Source of the DNA: an uncultured delta proteobacterium
GTDB lineage: Bacteria > Myxococcota_A > Polyangia > Polyangiales > B10-G4
Length of the DNA: 64,000 nucleotides
Assembly (NCBI GenBank): GCA_963727445.1
Contig: CAVSGI010000025.1
Span: forward strand, 42,041-106,040
Direction of reading: 5' to 3'
The notes under the pieces are model-generated. The model was not told the DNA's origin and made no database searches. It saw nothing but the letters and a program-made list of their open reading frames with translations. A program made the position numbers and the translations under genes. Shown here in pieces: positions 16,467 to 36,880 of this stretch (position 1 is the stretch's first letter; each line of letters opens with the position of its first letter).

Positions 16467-16483
16467 GGCCTTTTCGTCCGGCA

Positions 16484-17176
16484 GGCCGAAGGCCCCACAC
16501 AAGGCTCACGCCACCGTAGCGGAGCGCGGCCGGAGTGTGGGCGAAGCCCACGCGCCGGGCGTGCGCAGCGCAGGTGGGGTGAGCCAGGACTGCGTCCGGC
16601 CGGCCGAAGGCCCCACACAAGGCTCACGCCACCGTAGCGGAGCGGCAGCGCAGGGCGCGTAGCGCCTGGAGGTGCAGCGCAGCGCAGGTGGGGTGAGCCA
16701 GGACTGCGTCCGGCCGGCCGAAGGCCCCACACAAGGCTCACGCCACCGTAGCGGAGCGGCAGCGCAGGGCGCGTAGCGCCTGGAGGTGCAGCGCAGCGCA
16801 GGTGGGGTGAGCCAGGACTGCGTCCGGCCGGCCGAAGGCCCCAGACAAGGCTCACGCCACCGTAGCGAAGCGGCAGCGCAGGGCGCGTAGCGCCTGGAGG
16901 TGCAGCGCAGCGCAGGTGGGGTGAGCCAGGACTGCGTCCGGCCGGCCGAAGGCCCCAGACAAGGCTCACGCCACCGTAGCGAAGCGCGGCCGGAGTGTGG
17001 GCGAAGCCCACGCGCCGGGCGTGCGCAGCGCAGGTGTCGTGAGCCAGGACTGCGTCCAGTAGGCCGAAGGCCCCACACAAGGCTCACGCCACCGTAGCGA
17101 AGCGCGGCCGGAGTGTGGGCGAAGCCCACGCGCCGGTGCGTGCGCAGCGCAGGTGTCGTGAGCCAGGACTGCGTCC
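16484..17176. repeat. Tandem array of six 114/118-bp palindrome-rich (REP/BIME-like) units with two alternative central modules
   Basis: GGCCGAAGGCCCCA(C/G)ACAAGGCTCACGCCACC starts at 16484, 16602, 16716, 16830, 16944 and 17062; module order A,B,B,B,A,A. Confidence 0.95.
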
Positions 17177-20074: not shown

Positions 20075-22189
20075 ATGGGGTCTCACGTGTCTTCCCTGGT
20101 CCACGCCGCACTCACCTTCCGCCGCACGGCGCGGGCGAGCTTCGGCTACCTGGCGGCCTTCGCCTTCGCGGTGCTCGACTTCCTCGGCGTCTTCCGGGTG
20201 AGCTACGAGTCGCTCGGCCTCGAGCACGGCGTGGTGACGGCGGCGTGGATCGCCGTCTTCGCCACGCGGGCCACGTCGCGCTTCAAGCAGGAAGAGGCGG
20301 GGCGGGTGCGCGCCTCTCTCGATCTCGAGCTGGGGCTGCTCCTGCTTGTCGCGGCGCACGCCGTGGTGCAGGTCGGTGGTGGGCTCACCAGCAACCTCTA
20401 TCCGCTGGTCTACATTCTGGTCGCCTTCGTCGCGTCCTTCGGCGAGCGGCCGGTCGGGACGATCCTGGTGCTGGTCGCCGTCTTCTTCGAGGCGGGGCTG
20501 TGGTTCATCACCGAAGAGCGGCGTGACGTGGAGCCGTTCGCGGTGCATGCGGCGTTCATCGTCTTCTTCGGGCTCCTCAATCTGGTCTTCACGCGCGTCG
20601 AGATCGCGCGGGTGCGCGAGCGTTCGAAGCGGGAGCTGGATCAAGAGCGCGAGAAGGTGCGCGACGATGCGCGGATCTTCCGGCTGGTGAGCGCGCCGAC
20701 GTCGTCGGGCGCCGCCGACGAGGAGCGTCTGCTCCGTTCGAGCATGGAGCAGGTCCACGCGCAGCTCTTTCACCAGCTCGACATGCTGAAGAAGACGATG
20801 GAGCTGCACACCTGCATCCTCTTCTTCGTCGACGAGAGCGGGGAGCGGCTCAGCATCGTCGAGCTGGCGACGGACTCGGACGACATCGCCGAGGGGCCCT
20901 TCAAGGTGGGCGGCGGTGCGGTGGGCGCGGTGGCGAGCCGCGGCGTGACGATGAACCTCGAGAACCTGCGGCTCGGCTACAAGGGGCTCTGTTACTACCG
21001 CGGGCCGGCGGAGGTGCGCGGTTTCGTGGGCGTGCCGGTGGTGGACGAGGGGAAGCTGCGCGGCGTCCTAGCGTGTGATCGGCGGGACGAGCGGCCCTTC
21101 ACGGGGCGGGACGAGCAGGTGCTCGAGGCGACTGTGAAGCAGATCCTCCGCACGGTGGAGAACGAGCGGGTCTTCGTGCAGCTCGAGCGCAGCAAGCGCG
21201 AGCAGACGGTGCTCTACGGCGCGTCGCAGAAGCTGGGCGCGGCGCTGACCGAGGACGAGGTGATCGACGCGGGGCTCGCGGCGGCCGCGGAGATCGCGAT
21301 GTACGACTTCGCTGCGGTGACGCTCTTCGATGCGGAGTCGAAGCGGCATTCGGTGCGGCGCGCGGTCGGCGAGGGAGCGGAGACCTTCACGAAGCTGACC
21401 TTCCGGGACAACACGTCGTTGACCGCGATGGCGGTGAAGAACAAGCATTACCTGCCGTACAAGGGCGAGTTCGACCCGCGCCAGCAGGTGGTCTTCACGA
21501 AGCGGAAGAACCTGAAGGGTATGGCGTCGCTCTTGATCATGCCGCTGGTGGTGCGGGAGAACGCGATCGGGACGATCTCCTTCGCGGCGCATCGTCGCGA
21601 TGCGTTCGGGAGCGCGGTGCGGCCGACGCTCTCGGTGCTGGCAAATCACGTGGCGGTGGCGCTGAGCAACGCGGCGGCCGTGCGGCGGCTCGAGGAGATG
21701 GCGACGACCGATGGGCTCACCGGCTGTCTGAACAAGCGGGCGTTCCTGGACGAGCTCGAGTCGAAGATCCGGAGCGCGGAGCGCTTCGACCGCAAGCTCT
21801 CACTGTTGGTGACGGACATCGACCATTTCAAGAGCGTCAACGATACCTACGGGCACGCGACGGGCGACGTGGTGATCAAGGAGCTCGGCGAGATCCTGCG
21901 GCGGATGAAGCGCGAGACCGACGTGGTGGCGCGCTTCGGCGGTGAGGAGTTCTGCATTCTCTGCGAGGAGACCGACACCGAGGGCGCCACGCTCCTCGCC
22001 GAGCGCGTCCGCGAAGAGCTCGAAGCCACCGTCTTCCAGACCGAGCTCGGCCGCCTCAAGGTCACCGCCTCCATCGGCGTCGCCACCTTCCCCCACGACG
22101 CCATGGACGAGCGCGGCCTCTTCGAGGCCAGCGACCGCGCCCTCTACGCCGCCAAACACGGCGGCCGCAACCAAGTCCGCACCGCCTGA
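20075..22189 (+). CDS. Membrane-bound diguanylate cyclase (TM-GAF-GAF-GGDEF)
   Basis: N-terminal TMs, two GAF-like regions, DIDHFKSVNDTYGH, RETD I-site, GGEEF active site. Confidence 0.93.
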   Translation: MGSHVSSLVHAALTFRRTARASFGYLAAFAFAVLDFLGVFRVSYESLGLEHGVVTAAWIAVFATRATSRFKQEEAGRVRASLDLELGLLLLVAAHAVVQVGGGLTSNLYPLVYILVAFVASFGERPVGTILVLVAVFFEAGLWFITEERRDVEPFAVHAAFIVFFGLLNLVFTRVEIARVRERSKRELDQEREKVRDDARIFRLVSAPTSSGAADEERLLRSSMEQVHAQLFHQLDMLKKTMELHTCILFFVDESGERLSIVELATDSDDIAEGPFKVGGGAVGAVASRGVTMNLENLRLGYKGLCYYRGPAEVRGFVGVPVVDEGKLRGVLACDRRDERPFTGRDEQVLEATVKQILRTVENERVFVQLERSKREQTVLYGASQKLGAALTEDEVIDAGLAAAAEIAMYDFAAVTLFDAESKRHSVRRAVGEGAETFTKLTFRDNTSLTAMAVKNKHYLPYKGEFDPRQQVVFTKRKNLKGMASLLIMPLVVRENAIGTISFAAHRRDAFGSAVRPTLSVLANHVAVALSNAAAVRRLEEMATTDGLTGCLNKRAFLDELESKIRSAERFDRKLSLLVTDIDHFKSVNDTYGHATGDVVIKELGEILRRMKRETDVVARFGGEEFCILCEETDTEGATLLAERVREELEATVFQTELGRLKVTASIGVATFPHDAMDERGLFEASDRALYAAKHGGRNQVRTA

Positions 22190-22362
22190 ACGGGGACGGT
22201 CTACACTTTTCAACTTTTCCAGCCTGAACGGGGACGGTCTACACTTTTCAACTTTTTTCAGCCGTTGTGGCGAGTGCTGGGAGCGAAAGTTGAAAAGTGT
22301 AGACCGTCCCCGTTGTGGCGGGTGCTGGGAGCGAAAGTTGAAAAGTGTAGACCGTCCCCGTT
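22189..22362. repeat. Four copies of a 29-bp element (two direct, two inverted)
   Basis: AACGGGGACGGTCTACACTTTTCAACTTT at 22189 and 22227; its reverse complement at 22286 and 22334. Confidence 0.95.
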
Positions 22363-22399
22363 GTGGTGGGGGGCGGTCGGCGCTATCGATTGGGCTGCG

Positions 22400-32499: not shown

Positions 32500-33585
32500 A
32501 TGGCTCGTTCTGGCTTTTGGGGGCTCTTGGTGGTGGCGGTCGCTTGTGTGGGGTGCGCCACGAAGGGCACGCCTCGAGGCGGCGACGGCGACTCGAGCAT
32601 CGCCATCGATGGCAGCACCCGCACCGACAGCACCGTCCGCCCGATCCCGGACGCGAGCCTCGAGGGCTGCACCGCGAGCAGCGCCATGGTCGAGGAGGGC
32701 TACGCGCCCATCGACATCATCTACGTCGTCGACAGCTCGGGGAGCATGTCGAACGAAGCGGAGCGCGTGCAGGAGAACATGAACGCGTTCTCCACCGCCC
32801 TCGGCGCCCTCGACCTCGACTACCACGTGGTGATGATCACCACGAGCTCCTACGTGTCGGTGCCGCCGCCCCTCGGCGGCAGCCCCCGCTACATGCTCAT
32901 CGATCGTCCGGTCTCCTCGAACGAGCCGCTCCGCGCGCTCCTCGACGAGTACCCGACCTACTCGAGCTTTCTGCGCCGCTCGGCGATAACCCATTTCGTG
33001 GCGGTGACCGACGACGAGAGCGACGTGACCGCGGCAGACTTCAAGATGCAGATGGAGCGCAACCTGATGCGCAACTTCATCTTCCACGCCATCGCATCGG
33101 AGATGGGCACCACCTCCTTCACCAATCCCGAAGGCGCGTGTCAGGTCTCGGGCGGCGGCTTCGGAGACGGCGCGGCGGCGCCAGGGCTCCAGTATTACGA
33201 GCTGGCGCATCTGACCGGCGGGCTGACCTTCTCCATCTGCACGCCCGCAGACGAGTGGGCGGGGCTCTTCGACACGCTGACGGCAGCGATCGCGGTGCCG
33301 ATGGCGCTCCCCTGCCGCTACGAGGTGCCTTCGGCGCCGGACGGCATGGAGCTCGATCCCTTCCAGGTGAACGTCCGCTTCACCAGCGGCACCGGCATGG
33401 AGCAGGTGCTGCCTTACGCCGGCGGCATGGCCGGCGCGGACACCGACTGCACCGCGGGCGGTTGGTACTACGAGAGCGACGCGCACGACGTGATCCTGAT
33501 CTGCCCCAACACCTGCTCGCAGATCGAGAGCGACGCGGCCGCACGGCTCGACTTGATCTTCGGCTGCATGACGCAGTTCATTTAG
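32500..33585 (+). CDS. vWA-domain lipoprotein
   Basis: Lipobox CVGC, DSSGSM MIDAS, VAVTDD; GGAGG RBS. Confidence 0.85.
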   Translation: MARSGFWGLLVVAVACVGCATKGTPRGGDGDSSIAIDGSTRTDSTVRPIPDASLEGCTASSAMVEEGYAPIDIIYVVDSSGSMSNEAERVQENMNAFSTALGALDLDYHVVMITTSSYVSVPPPLGGSPRYMLIDRPVSSNEPLRALLDEYPTYSSFLRRSAITHFVAVTDDESDVTAADFKMQMERNLMRNFIFHAIASEMGTTSFTNPEGACQVSGGGFGDGAAAPGLQYYELAHLTGGLTFSICTPADEWAGLFDTLTAAIAVPMALPCRYEVPSAPDGMELDPFQVNVRFTSGTGMEQVLPYAGGMAGADTDCTAGGWYYESDAHDVILICPNTCSQIESDAAARLDLIFGCMTQFI

Positions 33586-33601
33586 GGCGCTTCGCGTTGG
33601 T

Positions 33602-33735
33602 GGGAACGGGAACGTGAGCGGGAACGTGAACGTGAACGTGGGCGGGAACGTGAACGGGAACGTGAACGTGAACGGGAGCGTGAACGGGAACGTGAGCGGG
33701 AGCCGGAACGTGAACGTGAACGTGAGCGGGTGAGC
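33602..33735 (+). repeat. Hexamer tandem tract 1, about 22 x G(G/T)GA(A/G)C
   Basis: GGGAAC/GTGAAC/GTGAGC/GGGAGC units in register from 33602. Confidence 0.95.
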
Positions 33736-33739
33736 GTGT

Positions 33740-33801
33740 TTCTTGGTCATCGCTGAGACCCCTCTCTTTTGGGGGAAAGGGGTCTCAGCGATGACCAAGA
33801 A
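33740..33801 (+). promoter_or_regulatory. Perfect 24-bp inverted repeat just upstream of four-helix-bundle gene 1
   Basis: TTCTTGGTCATCGCTGAGACCCCT (33740-33763) and AGGGGTCTCAGCGATGACCAAGAA (33778-33801). Confidence 0.85.
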
Positions 33802-33813
33802 CACTCTGATCAG

Positions 33814-34131
33814 ATGATTCATCACAATCTTCGGGTTTGGCAGCGGGCCGTGGCCCTGGTGCGTGCCGTGTACGCCAACCTGCCGAAGGACGCCGAGCTG
33901 CGGTCGCAGGTGAAGAGGGCTTCGACCTCGGTCGGTGCCAACATCGCCGAGGGATGCACGCAGAGCTCGCGGGCGATGCAGCGTAAGCACTACGAGATCG
34001 CGCGGGGCTCGGCCGTCGAGACCGTGGCGTGTTTCGAGCTGGCGGAAGCGACGGGGGATCGGCTTCCTGTCGAGGAGGTGCGAAGCCACGGCGCAGCGAT
34101 CGCCGCGATGCTCACGAAGATGCTTCGGTGA
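33814..34131 (+). CDS. Four-helix-bundle protein (23S rRNA IVS protein / Avd-like family)
   Basis: LRVWQRA, QVKRASTSVGANIAEG, IARGSAVET motifs. Confidence 0.9.
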   Translation: MIHHNLRVWQRAVALVRAVYANLPKDAELRSQVKRASTSVGANIAEGCTQSSRAMQRKHYEIARGSAVETVACFELAEATGDRLPVEEVRSHGAAIAAMLTKMLR

Positions 34132-34137
34132 ACGACG

Positions 34138-34175
34138 GTGAGCCCGGAGGGAGGGGGTTCGCCCTCCGGGCTCAC
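34138..34175. terminator. 14-bp hairpin between the two convergent four-helix-bundle genes
   Basis: GTGAGCCCGGAGGG and CCCTCCGGGCTCAC arms. Confidence 0.65.
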
Positions 34176-34182
34176 GTTCACA

Positions 34183-34509
34183 TCAACGATGGATCATCCG
34201 CCAGAGGGTGGCGGCGGCGTGATCGAAATGGTCCTCGGCCGATGTGCTCTCTGCCGCCCCGAGGTAGCCCCACGCCACAGCGATGCGAAGCGCCTGCCTC
34301 GCCTCCCTCGCAGAGTTCATCGCGACGGAGAGGCGTTCAGGCCGATGGCCTTTTCGCCCCCACTCGCCCTCGGCGGCGTTCAGCGCCGCCGAGCTGGCGG
34401 CCCGCCGCAGCTGCGACGCGAGGTCGCGGTCTTCGTCTTGGATGGCCTCGGCGAGGGGCCGCGTGGCCTCGATGGCCTCGAGGAGGATGTCGTGTACCAG
34501 CTTGCTCAT
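34183..34509 (-). CDS. Four-helix-bundle protein (second, divergent)
   Basis: DLASQLRRAASSAALNAAEG, AMNSARE, AWGYL motifs; AAGGAG RBS. Confidence 0.88.
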   Translation of the reverse strand: MSKLVHDILLEAIEATRPLAEAIQDEDRDLASQLRRAASSAALNAAEGEWGRKGHRPERLSVAMNSAREARQALRIAVAWGYLGAAESTSAEDHFDHAAATLWRMIHR

Positions 34510-34511
34510 GA

Positions 34512-34590
34512 GGTGTCGCTCCTTCCGCCCGCGTCAGGGGGCTTTGCCCCGCCCGAAGGGCCCCCTGACGCGGGCGGGAGGAGCGACACC
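34512..34590 (-). promoter_or_regulatory. 31-bp inverted repeat (one mismatch) covering the RBS of four-helix-bundle gene 2
   Basis: Arms at 34512-34542 and 34560-34590. Confidence 0.85.
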
Positions 34591-34597
34591 GATGGGT

Positions 34598-34705
34598 CCA
34601 CTCCCACTCCCACTCCCACTCCCACTCCCACTCCCACTCCCACTCCCACTCCCACTCCCACTCCCACTCCCACTCCCACTCCCACTCCCACTCCCACTCC
34701 CACTC
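34598..34705 (-). repeat. Hexamer tandem tract 2, (CCACTC)18, read as (GGGAGT)n on the minus strand
   Basis: Perfect 108-bp tandem repeat. Confidence 0.97.
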
Positions 34706-34740
34706 TTCGGACCCGAGCGCAGCGAAGGGGGGCAGAACGT

Positions 34741-34908
34741 GGGAACGGGAACGGGAACGGGAGTGGGAACGGGAACGGGAACGGGAACGGGAACGTGAAC
34801 GTGAACGGGAGCGTGAGCGGGAACGGGAACGGGAACGGGAACGGGAACGGGAACGGGAACGGGAACGGGAACGGGAGTGGGAACGGGAGCGGGAACGGGA
34901 ACGGGAGG
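34741..34908 (+). repeat. Hexamer tandem tract 3, about 28 x GGGAAC with GGGAGT/GTGAAC/GGGAGC/GTGAGC variants
   Basis: Units in register from 34741; ends 4 nt before the stop of the upstream minus-strand gene. Confidence 0.97.
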
Positions 34909-34912
34909 GCGA

Positions 34913-36880
34913 TTACTCTGGGTCGCAGGGGCCGTCGCAGGTCTGTTCGACCATGCCGTCGGGGCGCAGGAAGCGGTCGAGCTGCTCCTGGCTCGCGGCG
35001 AGGCGCCGGACGCCTTCGTGTACTTCGTTGTCCTCCGGGATCAGCATCTCGTCGGTGGGCGCGACGCCGAAGTCGAACTCCTCGATCGTCGCCGGGCCGT
35101 CGTAGGGCGCGGTGACGTCCTCGAGGCCGGTGATGGGGCGCGGCGCGGGCGTCAGGTGGGCGGCGCCGACGGCGCGCGCGTGGAGGTGCGCGGCGAGGTT
35201 CGTCACCTGGGCGTCGTTGACGCCAATCTGCATCAACACGCGCCGGCCGGCCGGCGTGCCGGGATAGGGGTCCGTCACCAGGTGGCTCGAATAGCTCAGC
35301 GGGTCGATGCGATCGAACTCGAGCTGCGCGAGGAGCTGGACCTTCTGGCGTTCGAAGGCGTCGTTGGCGACGGCCGCGAGGATGGCGAGGAAGGGGAAGA
35401 AGGGACGCGCGCGAAACATCATCAGACTGAAGTTCGCGCCGCCGACGCCGAGCACCGCGCGGTCGATGTCGGGTGACAGAGCGACGAAGGTGCCGCCGAG
35501 GATGTGGCCCTGGCTGTTGCCCCAGTAGTAGACCTCGGCGGGCTCGTAGACGAGCTCGCCGCCGATGATCAGCTCGGGCAGCGTCGTGAGCGTCGTGCGG
35601 ATCGCGTGCGCGACCGCCATGAAGTTCGCCATGCCCTGATGCACACGGTCCGTGAACTTCATCGTCTGCGTCGGCTCGCCGGCGAGGGAGATCCCGAGCT
35701 GCTGTCCGTCGGGCTGAGTCATCCCCCACCAGTCGGTGAAGAAGAGGACGAAGCCGCGGTCGTCCGCGACCTCGTGGATGGTGTTCTGCACCGCCTCCTC
35801 ACGCGATCCGAAGAAGCCGTGCCCGTACATGAGCGCCCGCGCCGGCGGATCCGTCATGGGATCGCGCGCGGCGACGCTTCGCGGGATCAGGATGGTGAAA
35901 GGCACCTCGGCGGTCCCATTCGCCACCACCGCGCCGCTGCCGTCGCGGTTCAGCGTCGACTCCACCTCGATCGAGTCGACGTAGAGCGGCACGGTGATCG
36001 TCGCCTCGATGCGCCGGAACGCGGTGTCGCTGTAGTCGTCCGTCACCTCGGTGACGGTGACGGCGGGCGGATCCGTTTCCATCCGGCTCACGAGGTCGTT
36101 GCGCACCCCGACCATGTCGCCGATGGTGTTGTCCTCGCTGCGCACCGTGAAGTCCCAGGCGAGGATCAGCTCCGCCCGCGCGACGCCCGCTGCCACCAAC
36201 GGGGCGAACACGTCGTCTTCGTAGCGGGCCGCGAGGCCCTCGAGCGCCGCGCTCTCGGGCGTCTCTCCGTCGCGGAGCTGGCGGAAGCCCTCCGGCACGG
36301 GAAGCGGATTGCCGTCGACGTCGTCGAGGCCGCGGATCGCGGCCACGTACCGATGCCCCCACGCGAGCGGCACCATCGGCCGGATGTAGAGAAGGCGCTT
36401 CTGGACCGGCGCGGTCGGATCGATCTCGGCGAAGTGGAGCACGCGCTCGCCGGTGTCGGCATCGAGGAGCACGGTGGGGCTCGCGTCGCCGAGGGACTCC
36501 GTGACGTCGTCCGTGTGAAAGACGAGGGGCGCGTCGTCGACGTTCACCGGGAAGCGGATCATCAGCGGCGAGCCCGGCGAAAAGCCGTCGTGGACGTGGA
36601 GCGCCGCGACGTCGACCGGCCCGGCGTTCGCGTGCAGCTGCGCCGGCTCCGGCAGCGTGACCTGGCCGCCGGTCAGGAAGAAGTCGGAGGGGAAGGGCAG
36701 GAGGCAGTCCCAGTCGGCGGCGAGGGGGTTACAGCTGGGGTCCGGCGGCGGGACGGAGGTGTCCGCGTCGGCCGCGTCCATCGCCGCATCCATCGCGGCG
36801 TCGGCGCTCCCGTCGTCCCCACAAGCGGCGGCGGCCGTGAGTCCGACGAGCAGCAGCAGAAGCGCGCGGCGTTCGTTCAC
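34913..36880 (-). CDS. Lipoprotein with alpha/beta-hydrolase-like domain
   Basis: Lipobox AAAC, YGHGFFG, GNSQG nucleophile elbow. Confidence 0.8.
   Translation of the reverse strand: MNERRALLLLLVGLTAAAACGDDGSADAAMDAAMDAADADTSVPPPDPSCNPLAADWDCLLPFPSDFFLTGGQVTLPEPAQLHANAGPVDVAALHVHDGFSPGSPLMIRFPVNVDDAPLVFHTDDVTESLGDASPTVLLDADTGERVLHFAEIDPTAPVQKRLLYIRPMVPLAWGHRYVAAIRGLDDVDGNPLPVPEGFRQLRDGETPESAALEGLAARYEDDVFAPLVAAGVARAELILAWDFTVRSEDNTIGDMVGVRNDLVSRMETDPPAVTVTEVTDDYSDTAFRRIEATITVPLYVDSIEVESTLNRDGSGAVVANGTAEVPFTILIPRSVAARDPMTDPPARALMYGHGFFGSREEAVQNTIHEVADDRGFVLFFTDWWGMTQPDGQQLGISLAGEPTQTMKFTDRVHQGMANFMAVAHAIRTTLTTLPELIIGGELVYEPAEVYYWGNSQGHILGGTFVALSPDIDRAVLGVGGANFSLMMFRARPFFPFLAILAAVANDAFERQKVQLLAQLEFDRIDPLSYSSHLVTDPYPGTPAGRRVLMQIGVNDAQVTNLAAHLHARAVGAAHLTPAPRPITGLEDVTAPYDGPATIEEFDFGVAPTDEMLIPEDNEVHEGVRRLAASQEQLDRFLRPDGMVEQTCDGPCDPE

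What the first reader, a model, noticed from the sequence alone, without database searches (positions are those of the whole stretch)
34598..34908. Two different microsatellites that form a ~100-bp duplex only in minus-strand RNA (G-U wobble)
Seen: (CCACTC)18 and (GGGAAC)~28 flank a 35-nt linker, TTCGGACCCGAGCGCAGCGAAGGGGGGCAGAACGT. In minus-strand RNA, the strand of both the upstream hydrolase gene and four-helix-bundle gene 2, (GUUCCC)n pairs with (GGGAGU)n at all six positions (4 Watson-Crick, 2 G-U). In plus-strand RNA each unit has two A-C mismatches. The variant units GGGAGT and GGGAGC improve the pairing. Inference: the asymmetry points to selection on a single-stranded, probably RNA, structure with a slidable register in the leader of gene 2. 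It is reminiscent of the long RNase III-processed stems that enclose IVS-protein genes in 23S rRNA.
Basis: partly seen in the sequence, partly recalled or inferred. Interest (0 to 1): 0.75.

Follow-up and report, generated by a model that had tools for sequence, protein, structure and literature searches.

The report
Expanded repeat arm of a gene cassette
The two complementary six-base repeat tracts are real, but they are best read as a recent, one-off expansion at the edge of a five-copy, repeat-embedded small-gene cassette and not as an RNA stem kept by selection.

Summary
The sequence is as described: (CCACTC)18 (perfect), a 35-nt linker and (GGGAAC)~28. Per unit they pair 4 WC + 2 G-U in minus-strand RNA and 4 WC + 2 A-C in plus-strand RNA. 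"Only in minus-strand RNA" is overstated, because both strands fold far better than shuffles (arms only: -195.7 vs -165.9 kcal/mol).

The tracts form the right edge of a module present 5 times in this genome: (GGGAAC)n array, 28-bp hairpin, four-helix-bundle (PF05635) gene 1, then convergent gene 2 with a 34-bp hairpin over its SD, a conserved linker and another (GGGAAC)n array. Only the window copy has a long C-rich arm. Two paralogs have about 50 nt of degenerate C-rich hexamers there, and two paralogs and a same-genus copy have none.

(GGGAAC)n is the commonest microsatellite in the genome. CCACTC is the reverse complement of its variant GGGAGT. Most transition variants of this family would put wobbles on that same strand, so the asymmetry is one amplified event and not evidence of selection.

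By contrast, the leader hairpin shows 11 compensatory pairs. In the sampled genomes of this order, hexamer arrays accompany most PF05635 genes, usually in direct orientation. This scan has noted such cassettes before on other DNA; I found no paper describing them. No RNA data were available.

The parts
33604..33730 (+). Left hexamer array, (GTGAAC/GGGAAC)~20, directly after the stop of the 361-aa gene
   Evidence: TRF found period 6, 20.3 copies. Unit counts are GTGAAC 8, GGGAAC 6, GTGAGC 2, GGGAGC 2. All 5 paralogous modules have a G-rich array here.
33738..33803 (+). Hairpin H1, a 28-bp stem about 11 nt upstream of the ATG of gene 1
   Evidence: Read from the sequence. In an alignment of 7 copies, 98.2% of cells pair, 11 of 28 pairs change on both sides and 0 change on one side.
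33814..34131 (+). Four-helix-bundle gene 1 (105 aa, PF05635)
   Evidence: Pfam E 2.8e-21. The ATG start is shared by 7 copies.
34138..34175 (.). GC-rich hairpin between the two convergent genes, terminator-like but without a T run
   Evidence: Read from the sequence. Present in all paralogs. The terminator scan did not call it.
34183..34509 (-). Four-helix-bundle gene 2 (108 aa, PF05635)
   Evidence: Pfam E 2.8e-10. GC3 is 0.84.
34512..34590 (-). Hairpin H2, a 34-bp stem whose gene-proximal arm holds the AAGGAG Shine-Dalgarno of gene 2
   Evidence: Seen in the folds of both strands. Present in window, C6, C27 and C14b, with paired changes such as cgcgtc/gacgcg against cacgtc/gacgtg. Deleted in C14a.
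34598..34705 (+). (CCACTC)18, which is (GGGAGT)18 on the minus strand: the expanded C-rich inverted arm and the subject of the finding
   Evidence: TRF gives 18.0 copies at 100% match. It is the only array of its class in the genome. Homologous to the degenerate C-rich hexamers of C6 and C27, and absent from C14a and C14b.
34706..34740 (+). Linker holding the conserved 21-mer GACCCGAGCGCAGCGAAGGGG
   Evidence: Matches with 0-1 mismatch occur in the genome only at the right ends of modules (C25, C14b, and C14a twice). A diverged form is present in C6 and C27.
34741..34908 (+). Right array, (GGGAAC)~28, ending 5 nt before the stop of the 655-aa gene
   Evidence: TRF gives 27.7 copies at 90% match. 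All 5 modules have a G-rich array here in the same orientation as the left array.
34913..36880 (-).
   Evidence: ORF, with GC3 0.93. No Pfam family matched. A GNSQG motif is seen by eye in the translation.

Best explanation
The locus is the right-hand edge of a dispersed, five-copy 'twin four-helix-bundle cassette' that sits inside (GGGAAC)n microsatellite.

Shown: the module order is G-rich array, hairpin H1, gene 1, convergent gene 2, hairpin H2, conserved linker, G-rich array.

Inferred: the copy ancestral to the window, C6 and C27 carried a short patch of inverted (C-rich) hexamers of the same repeat family between H2 and the linker. In the window copy one unit of that patch, CCCACT, expanded recently by replication slippage to 18 perfect copies.

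The arm is complementary to (GGGAAC)n because it is an inverted relative of that repeat. Its unit differs by A-to-G and C-to-T, which automatically gives G-U on the strand where the arm reads G-rich (the minus strand) and A-C on the other.

If a minus-strand transcript crosses the region, for example by read-through from the 655-aa gene, a hairpin of about 100 pairs will form as soon as the second arm is made. It could incidentally block or process that RNA. This duplex is a by-product of repeat dynamics and not a conserved part of the cassette. The conserved cis-elements are the two gene-proximal hairpins and the arrays as such.
For: Module in 5 places with unrelated flanking genes.

The C-rich arm is long only in the window. 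It is about 50 nt and degenerate in C6 and C27, bracketed by the same CCGATGGG and linker. It is absent in C14a, C14b and the same-genus copy L002.

(CCACTC)18 is the only array of its class among 156 TRF period-6 arrays. It is one of 2 perfect arrays among 49 with 15 or more copies, whose median identity is 0.88.

(CCACTC)4 with up to 1 mismatch was found in 6 of 201 sampled genomes of the order, counting this one. Elsewhere only short runs occur, and there are none in the same-genus genome.

(GGGAAC)-class arrays are the commonest class: 36 of the 156 TRF arrays, 17 of them inside ORFs, most of these read as (GT)n or (GN)n.

Among the 20 commonest units of 988 in this class, wobble-type transition variants number 193 (GGGAGC 149, GGGAAT 21, GGGGAC 18, GGGAGT 5), against 20 of A-C type and 55 mixed.

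GGGAGT units also occur in the right array of C14b, which has no C-rich partner (by eye).

Of 57 array pairs within 2.5 kb in this genome, 43 are direct and none is inverted at 5 of 6 or better. The window pair is the only one with 4 WC and 6 of 6 pairing.

The paralogs show no minus-strand folding advantage.

Positive control for what selection looks like here: hairpin H1 has 11 of 28 compensatory pairs.
Against: GGGAGT is rare genome-wide (5 of 988 units), yet 2 of the 27 units of the adjacent right array are GGGAGT, the exact Watson-Crick partner of the arm. This could mean exchange between the arms or selection for pairing.

The minus strand does fold about 30 kcal/mol better.

Some relatives of the cassette do have complementary arrays around the gene, so paired hexamer arms may be functional in the family.

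No transcript, read or population data could be obtained, so both the recency of the expansion and the lack of function are inferences.
Confidence: 0.65

Rival explanations
1. The two arrays are kept by selection to form a long duplex with a slidable register in the minus-strand leader of gene 2. This would be an RNase III-type processing or stability element, and G-U tolerance reveals the functional strand.
For: Pairing is 6 of 6 on the minus strand only. The minus fold is 30 kcal/mol better. The arms lie upstream of gene 2, on its strand and on that of the 655-aa gene. GGGAGT units in the right array give perfect pairs.
Against: The arm is absent or vestigial in 4 of 5 paralogs and in the same-genus copy. 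The arm is perfect, so it is young. The asymmetry is the neutral expectation for this repeat family. Paralogs and other lineages show no strand rule. In C14a and C14b gene 2 diverges from the next gene, so read-through cannot be its normal source of transcription. The conserved hairpins use Watson-Crick changes only.
Confidence: 0.12
2. IVS-like bracket. The C-rich arm is the true inverted partner of the LEFT array (33604-33730). Together they enclose both convergent genes, as complementary arrays enclose single PF05635 genes in some relatives. The right array is then an extra neighbour.
For: Complementary arrays bracket the gene in L115, L117 and L137 (6 of 6 WC) and in L134 (5 of 6). The layout of array, genes and inverted array fits this design.
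Against: The left array pairs with the arm at only 3 WC + 2 G-U per unit. The right array is 35 nt away and would win kinetically in minus-strand RNA. Of 40 genes in the sample with arrays on both sides, 31 have direct arrays and 3 have inverted ones. Four of 5 paralogs lack a usable arm.
Confidence: 0.08
3. DNA-level role. The arrays act as G-quadruplex or i-motif tracts, or as a quasi-palindrome, that stall forks and promote recombination. This would let the cassette move between (GGGAAC)n arrays or vary in length as a contingency locus.
For: (GGGAAC)n on the plus strand and (GGGAGT)n on the minus strand are G3N3 runs, and the single arms are predicted to form G-quadruplexes. Direct arrays flank all 5 modules, and 43 of 57 nearby array pairs are direct. 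Array and cassette are absent upstream of purM in 9 of 9 relatives with a purM match.
Against: Arrays next to the other PF05635 subfamilies (CGGATT, GGCGTT, GCGTTT) have no G runs. With both arms present the duplex out-competes G-quadruplexes in the minus RNA. No promoter-like site was found whose spacing the arrays could tune. There are no population data.
Confidence: 0.1
4. Assembly artefact. The perfect 18-unit array or its orientation is a mis-assembly.
For: The array is perfectly regular. The genome is in 27 contigs and 85.6% complete. No reads were available to check it.
Against: The assembly spans many longer arrays, up to 398 nt. The arm sits exactly where two paralogs have homologous C-rich hexamers, between the same flanking motifs.
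Confidence: 0.03

Closest known systems
ORF-bearing intervening sequences (IVS) of 23S rRNA, e.g. the Coxiella burnetii IVS with its S23p ORF (PMC4990558, abstract read)
   Same: The genes belong to the same protein family (PF05635). The element is small and looks selfish, and long base-paired arms sit next to the ORF. In Coxiella the stem is cut by RNase III. Some relatives here have complementary arms enclosing the ORF.
   Different: It is not in rRNA. The arms are hexamer microsatellites. In this genome the flanking arrays are direct, not inverted. The window's paired arms both lie upstream of gene 2 and enclose only a 35-nt linker. Two convergent genes share one module.
Hexamer-array-flanked four-helix-bundle cassettes noted earlier by this scan on other DNA (e1-6554997, e1-3910770, e1-1497503, e1-5271126 and others). 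These are AI notes, not publications.
   Same: Twin or single PF05635 genes, a leader hairpin, six-base repeat tracts, many copies per genome, and repeat motifs specific to protein branches. I re-derived all of these independently.
   Different: The earlier notes stress mirror-image arms. In my sample of this order direct arrays dominate (31 of 40). The window's long arm pair without a gene is unique in its genome.
Avd, the accessory protein of diversity-generating retroelements (PMC10053308, search listing only), and PF05635 genes in cas loci (PMC3936711, one passage read)
   Same: The same four-helix-bundle family, again as small genes lodged next to repeat-containing or nucleic-acid-handling systems.
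   Different: I did not look for a reverse transcriptase, template/variable repeats, cas genes or CRISPR arrays here. The nearest neighbours are a 361-aa gene and a 655-aa gene with no Pfam match.
Quasi-palindromes and slipped-strand microsatellite expansion (general knowledge, recalled)
   Same: A perfect, recently grown tract next to an inverted relative. A rare shared variant (GGGAGT) in both arms is what templated correction between quasi-palindrome arms would give.
   Different: The arms here are whole microsatellite arrays with a sliding register, embedded in a multi-copy gene cassette.

Membership tests
ORF-bearing 23S rRNA intervening sequence (IVS) | Inserted in helix 25 or 45 of a 23S rRNA gene | tested here: not met
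   No rRNA match in 33000-35500 at E up to 1. The module lies between protein-coding genes.
ORF-bearing 23S rRNA intervening sequence (IVS) | ORF of the PF05635 / S23p family | tested here: met
   Both genes match PF05635, at 2.8e-21 and 2.8e-10, above the cut-off.
ORF-bearing 23S rRNA intervening sequence (IVS) | Complementary ends form a stem that encloses the ORF | tested here: not met
   The strongly pairing arms (34598-34705 and 34741-34908) enclose only the linker. The left array and the arm, which do enclose the genes, pair at 3 WC + 2 G-U of 6.
ORF-bearing 23S rRNA intervening sequence (IVS) | Excision by RNase III | not testable with these tools
   No RNA run holds the stretch.
Hexamer-array-flanked four-helix-bundle cassette (undescribed in print; noted earlier by this scan) | PF05635 gene within a few hundred nt of a period-6 array | tested here: met
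   16 of 16 PF05635 matches in this genome lie within 495 nt of an array, against 2.5% of random windows within 650 nt. In sampled relatives, 110 of 160 genes have an array.
Hexamer-array-flanked four-helix-bundle cassette (undescribed in print; noted earlier by this scan) | Conserved hairpin at the gene start | tested here: met
   H1 is 28 bp with 11 compensatory pairs. H2 is 34 bp and covers the SD. In the sample, perfect stems of 12 bp or more occur at 36 of 124 gene starts against 6 of 184 controls.
Hexamer-array-flanked four-helix-bundle cassette (undescribed in print; noted earlier by this scan) | Multi-copy, at unrelated loci | tested here: met
   5 module copies with different neighbours. 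Array and cassette are absent upstream of purM in 9 of 9 relatives with a purM match.
Phase-variable contingency locus (SSR in a promoter spacer or ORF) | Repeat between promoter elements or in frame in a gene, with length differing between strains | tested here: inconclusive
   The arrays lie outside the confident ORFs. No sigma-70-like site was found in 33400-35100. There are no strain or read data.
Intrinsic terminator | GC-rich stem followed by a T run | tested here: not met
   No terminator-like site was called at the arrays or hairpins. The one site found, at 34410-34430, is inside gene 2.
G-quadruplex-forming tract | Four or more G3 runs with loops of 1-7 nt | tested here: met
   The sequence shows (GGGAAC)n and, on the minus strand, (GGGAGT)n. 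ViennaRNA with G-quadruplexes folds the single arms at -77.1 and -50.6 kcal/mol. The full minus RNA still prefers the duplex.

The most novel reading that the evidence does not exclude
The hexamer arms are working cis-elements of a self-spreading, IVS-like cassette that lives outside rRNA. Each branch of the four-helix-bundle protein family keeps its own hexamer: here GGGAAC, GGCGTT/GCGTTT and CGGATT for three subfamilies. The arrays and the gene-proximal hairpins are what the protein or a host RNase/recombinase acts on. On this reading the window's C-rich arm is the surviving inverted arm of the twin cassette, caught in the act of regrowing, and it forms a gene-less arm pair with the right array.
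Probability: 0.15. Interest if true: 0.8.

Novelty: new variant of a known kind. Interest (0 to 1): 0.4.

Why it matters
The specific claim, a strand-specific RNA stem revealed by G-U wobble, would have been a neat example of selection acting on a microsatellite. The evidence says the asymmetry is a neutral by-product, which is a useful caution: transitions in one arm of any inverted repeat always give G-U on one strand and A-C on the other, and slippage multiplies a single event.

What remains of interest is the setting. A small gene family otherwise known from rRNA intervening sequences, DGRs and cas loci is tied to hexamer microsatellites and covarying hairpins. This holds for 16 of 16 genes in this genome and for most genes in sampled relatives. 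My six searches of the held library found no paper that describes it. Working out how these cassettes spread, and what the arrays do, would address the long-open question of what IVS-type four-helix-bundle genes are for.

Tried and rejected
Rfam. Nothing reached gathering score in 33000-35500. The only matches were sub-threshold plant and animal miRNA-precursor hairpins over the array stem. Eight relatives' loci gave 0 matches.

Promoter and terminator scan. 0 promoter-like sites and no terminator at the arrays.

Sequencing runs. No RNA holder was listed, and the best DNA share was 0.11 of sampled words, so nothing was laid and there is no evidence either way on expression or on array length.

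Metagenome scan with the 21-nt linker. It returned 11 contigs, all in unrelated contexts. My detector found no period-6 arrays there, so no extra module ends were gained. One contig (L248) has G-rich and C-rich heptamer-like runs on either side of the motif, by eye.

I tested a recalled idea that a GAGCGnAGCGAAG motif accompanies four-helix-bundle genes in other phyla. It was present in 5 of 78 loci, all at the same place 3' of the four-helix-bundle match, so I rejected it.

Translated repeats. The arrays lie in long spurious ORFs (TPTP.../GNGN... on plus, PFPF.../VGVG... on minus). These overlap the real genes out of frame and were not picked by the GC3 test.

The orthologous locus in the same-genus genome. 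The best match to the 655-aa protein is only 46% identical. Its contig breaks in a (GAACGK)-type array 97 nt past the gene end, so the arm could not be examined there.

Literature. Subscription journals are not covered.

A first attempt at the hairpin census used a wrong profile-position filter and gave only 2 regions. It was redone.

Full report
**1. The observation**

At 34598-34705 TRF finds (CCACTC) x18.0 with 100% matches, and at 34741-34906 (GGGAAC) x27.7 with 90% matches.

Per repeat unit, the best antiparallel register gives 4 Watson-Crick pairs and no wobble on the plus strand. On the minus strand it gives 4 Watson-Crick plus 2 G-U.

Folding 34500-34920 as RNA gives -272.7 kcal/mol for the minus strand (z -13.8) and -253.1 for the plus strand (z -10.1). 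None of 100 shuffles reaches either value.

For the arms and linker alone (311 nt) the results are as follows:
- Minus RNA: -195.7 kcal/mol, 129 pairs, 31 of them G-U.
- Plus RNA: -165.9 kcal/mol, 100 pairs in 4-bp blocks separated by 2x2 loops. This becomes -180.0 if G-quadruplexes are allowed.
- As DNA: -82.1 vs -75.8 kcal/mol.

The tracts and the arithmetic are therefore real and far from chance. The word 'only' in the title is too strong, because the plus strand also folds into a long helix.

**2. What surrounds it**

The tracts lie in a 1.3-kb gap between two convergent genes: a 361-aa gene on the plus strand and a 655-aa gene on the minus strand. From left to right the gap holds:
- a (GTGAAC/GGGAAC)~20 array (33604-33730);
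- a 28-bp hairpin H1 (33738-33803);
- four-helix-bundle gene 1 (33814-34131, plus strand, PF05635, E 2.8e-21);
- a GC-rich hairpin between the genes;
- four-helix-bundle gene 2 (34183-34509, minus strand, PF05635, E 2.8e-10);
- a 34-bp hairpin H2 (34512-34590) whose gene-proximal arm contains gene 2's AAGGAG;
- then (CCACTC)18, the linker and (GGGAAC)28, which ends 5 nt before the stop of the 655-aa gene.

The 655-aa protein matches no Pfam family. The label 'hydrolase' rests only on a GNSQG motif seen by eye.

**3. The module is repeated**

The genome is 9.47 Mb, 69% G+C, in 27 contigs. It has 16 PF05635 matches.

The convergent pair occurs five times: in the window, at C6:405304-405910, at C27:289654-290260, at C14:396312-396952 and at C14:127931-128535. 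The copies are 81-85% identical over 860 nt and have unrelated neighbours such as purM, a miaB-like gene and a gene on the opposite strand.

All five copies share the order G-rich array, H1, gene 1, gene 2, H2 (deleted in C14a), linker, G-rich array. The two flanking arrays are in the same orientation. C14a is decayed: gene 1 is frameshifted.

The 21-mer GACCCGAGCGCAGCGAAGGGG of the linker matches with 0-1 mismatch only at the right ends of modules in this genome.

**4. The C-rich arm is peculiar to the window copy**

An alignment of the junctions places the window's (CCACTC)18 exactly where C6 and C27 have about 50 nt of degenerate C-rich hexamers (cccgct cccgtt ... ccccac tcaccc ... tcccag). 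This patch lies between the shared CCGATGGG and the linker. C14b goes from H2 to the linker without any such patch, as does C14a.

A same-genus copy (L002) has the genes, a long hairpin with the SD, a linker-like GAGCGCAGCGA and a G-rich hexamer array, but no C-rich arm.

(CCACTC)n is the only array of its class among the 156 TRF period-6 arrays of six or more copies. It is one of two perfect arrays among the 49 arrays of 15 or more copies, whose median identity to consensus is 0.88.

Four or more units, allowing one mismatch, were found in 6 of 201 sampled genomes of the order, counting this one. Elsewhere there are only short runs, and there are none in the same-genus genome.

Of 57 pairs of arrays lying within 2.5 kb of each other in this genome, 43 are direct and none is inverted at 5 of 6 or better. 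The window pair is the only one with 4 Watson-Crick pairs and full 6 of 6 pairing.

The simplest history is a short inverted patch in the common ancestor of three copies, with a recent slippage expansion of one unit in the window.

**5. Why the G-U asymmetry is not evidence of selection**

CCACTC is the reverse complement of GGGAGT. That unit is GGGAAC with A-to-G and C-to-T changes.

Any transition in one arm of an inverted repeat gives G-U on one strand and A-C on the other. A-to-G and C-to-T give wobbles on the strand where the changed arm is read.

(GGGAAC)-class arrays are the commonest class in the genome. They make up 36 of the 156 TRF arrays, and 17 of them lie inside ORFs, most of these translated as (GT)n or (GN)n.

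Among the 20 commonest units of the 988 in this class:
- Wobble-type transition variants total 193: GGGAGC 149, GGGAAT 21, GGGGAC 18 and GGGAGT 5.
- 20 are of the A-C type (GGAAAC).
- 55 are mixed.

An inverted arm built from a typical variant of this family would therefore usually place its wobbles on the strand where it reads G-rich, which here is the minus strand. The 18 units are one state multiplied by slippage, not 18 observations.

Other checks agree:
- In the four other paralogs the plus strand of the homologous stretch folds better in three (C6, C14a, C14b) and the minus strand in one (C27).
- In relatives, array pairs that pair better on one strand favour the gene's sense strand in about three lineages: four paralogous loci of one genome counted once, L168, and the window. 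They favour the antisense strand in about three: L134, L211 and L158. Most of these pairings are weak.

One point runs the other way. GGGAGT is rare (5 of 988 units), yet two of the 27 units of the neighbouring right array are GGGAGT, the exact partner of the arm. However, the right array of C14b also has GGGAGT units and has no partner arm (by eye). Shared ancestry of the right arrays, or templated correction between quasi-palindrome arms, explains this as well as selection does.

**6. What conserved structure looks like in this element**

H1 was aligned from the five paralogs and two same-genus copies. It keeps 98.2% of cells paired. 11 of its 28 pairs change on both sides, and none changes on one side only. 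None of 500 shuffles reaches the observed covariation score. H2 shows paired changes between paralogs as well.

These hairpins, and not the array duplex, are the conserved cis-elements. Their changes are Watson-Crick to Watson-Crick, with no wobble intermediates. That fits a palindrome kept at DNA level at least as well as an RNA stem.

**7. The wider pattern**

In this genome all 16 PF05635 matches lie within 495 nt of a period-6 array. Of 20,000 random windows, 495 (2.5%) lie within 650 nt of one. The 16 matches fall into only about three subfamilies at ten loci, so they are not independent.

Each of the three subfamilies has its own hexamer, followed by a long hairpin over the SD or the start codon:
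- GGGAAC for the twin module;
- GGCGTT/CGCGTT/GCGTTT for a second subfamily;
- CGGATT for a third.

For the order I examined 127 stretches: 117 loci from sampled genomes of the order plus 10 regions of this genome. Results:
- 110 of 160 distinct PF05635 genes have an array within 700 nt upstream or 900 nt downstream.
- 218 of the 221 arrays have period 6.
- 40 of the genes without an upstream array have less than 400 nt of contig on that side.
- Many matches lie 100-450 nt from a contig end.
- Of 40 genes with arrays on both sides, 31 have direct arrays, 3 inverted and 6 neither.
- Perfectly complementary arrays bracket the gene in L115, L117 and L137, and those loci have no Rfam match at gathering score.

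Two comparisons serve as controls. Upstream of purM, 9 of 9 relatives with a purM match have neither array nor cassette. That fits the array and cassette having arrived together in this lineage, although these relatives belong to other families. In 78 loci around more distant relatives of gene 1 from other phyla there are no hexamer arrays of five or more copies, but nine loci have short heptamer arrays.

**8. Comparison with what is known**

PF05635 proteins are known from three settings:
- ORF-bearing IVS of 23S rRNA. In Coxiella the IVS is excised by RNase III (PMC4990558, abstract).
- DGR Avd (PMC10053308, search listing only).
- cas loci (PMC3936711, one passage; PMC10910872, one figure legend).

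Six searches of the held library found no paper tying this family, or myxobacteria, to hexamer microsatellites. Subscription journals are not covered.

Earlier notes of this scan describe the same kind of cassette on other DNA. I reached the pattern independently before reading them. My counts agree on the association, the hairpin, the multi-copy nature and the branch-specific motifs. They differ in finding direct rather than mirror-image arrays to be the rule in this order.

**9. Verdict**

The tracts are real, and the minus-strand duplex is thermodynamically favoured. It is best explained as a recent expansion of an inverted variant unit at the edge of a repeat-embedded twin four-helix-bundle cassette, with the strand asymmetry a neutral consequence (confidence about 0.65).

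The IVS-like bracket with the left array keeps about 0.08. DNA-level roles (G-quadruplex or recombination) keep about 0.10. Mis-assembly keeps about 0.03.

Transcription, processing and array polymorphism could not be tested, because no run holds the stretch.

Noticed in passing
window 16475-17176: Six tandem copies of a 114-nt unit (91% matches) rich in GCGAAGCGCAGC / GAGCGCAGCGCAGG motifs, which resemble the core of the cassette's linker.
   Followed up: no
window 22184-22370: Two adjacent tandem repeats (38 nt x1.9 and 48 nt x2.3) share a GACGGTCTACACTTTTCAACTTT core in opposite orientations. The same core flanks linker-like motifs at G000 C14:252714-252865.
   Followed up: no
G000 C6:406045-406395 and C27:290395-291000 (loci L015, L009): 6-10 tandem copies of a 59-nt unit (cgggcgttggccgcaacgtcgggacttgcgaccgc...) are inserted between hairpin H2 and the C-rich patch in two paralogous modules.
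   Followed up: no
G000 C27:289134-289398, 291178-291271; C6:404870-404963: A roughly 95-nt element (gggcacgtggctgtagccgtgcatggcggagcggacggcagtccgc...gatgctagtc) is repeatedly interspersed inside the (GGGAAC)n arrays of two modules, like a small insertion that targets the arrays.
   Followed up: no
G000 C14:127931-128611 (locus L020): This module copy is decaying. Gene 1 is frameshifted, hairpin H2 is deleted and the linker is duplicated.
   Followed up: partly
G000, 17 sites listed (e.g. C21:713982-714262, C9:828493-828711): (GGGAAC)n arrays also lie inside long ORFs. Most of these are translated as (Gly-Thr)n or (Gly-Asn)n linkers with the G-rich strand as sense, so the same microsatellite is both coding and intergenic in this genome.
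   Followed up: partly
G000 C14:205507-205798: A perfect (CCCGTT) x48.7 array, the only other perfect long array in the genome. It fills most of a doubtful 151-aa ORF.
   Followed up: no
Loci L050, L058, L059, L081, L086, L097, L101, L102, L105 (records from other phyla): Distant relatives of gene 1 in other phyla have short heptamer arrays (5-10 copies), not hexamers. In six of the nine loci the array lies within about 150 nt of the matched part of the gene.
   Followed up: partly
Copy numbers of these cassettes are therefore probably underestimated in draft genomes.
   Followed up: partly
Locus L248 (metagenome contig): The exact 21-nt linker motif lies between G-rich (GGGGAAC-like) runs upstream and (CCCCGTT)n-like runs downstream. 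This is an inverted arm pair around the same motif in an unrelated contig.
   Followed up: no
Loci L142-L145 (G009) and L156-L159 (G031): The same twin layout (array, hairpin, gene 1, convergent gene 2, hairpin with SD, array) occurs in other families of the order. The hexamers (CAGTGC; CGGACT/CGGATT) and the hairpin sequences are entirely different.
   Followed up: partly
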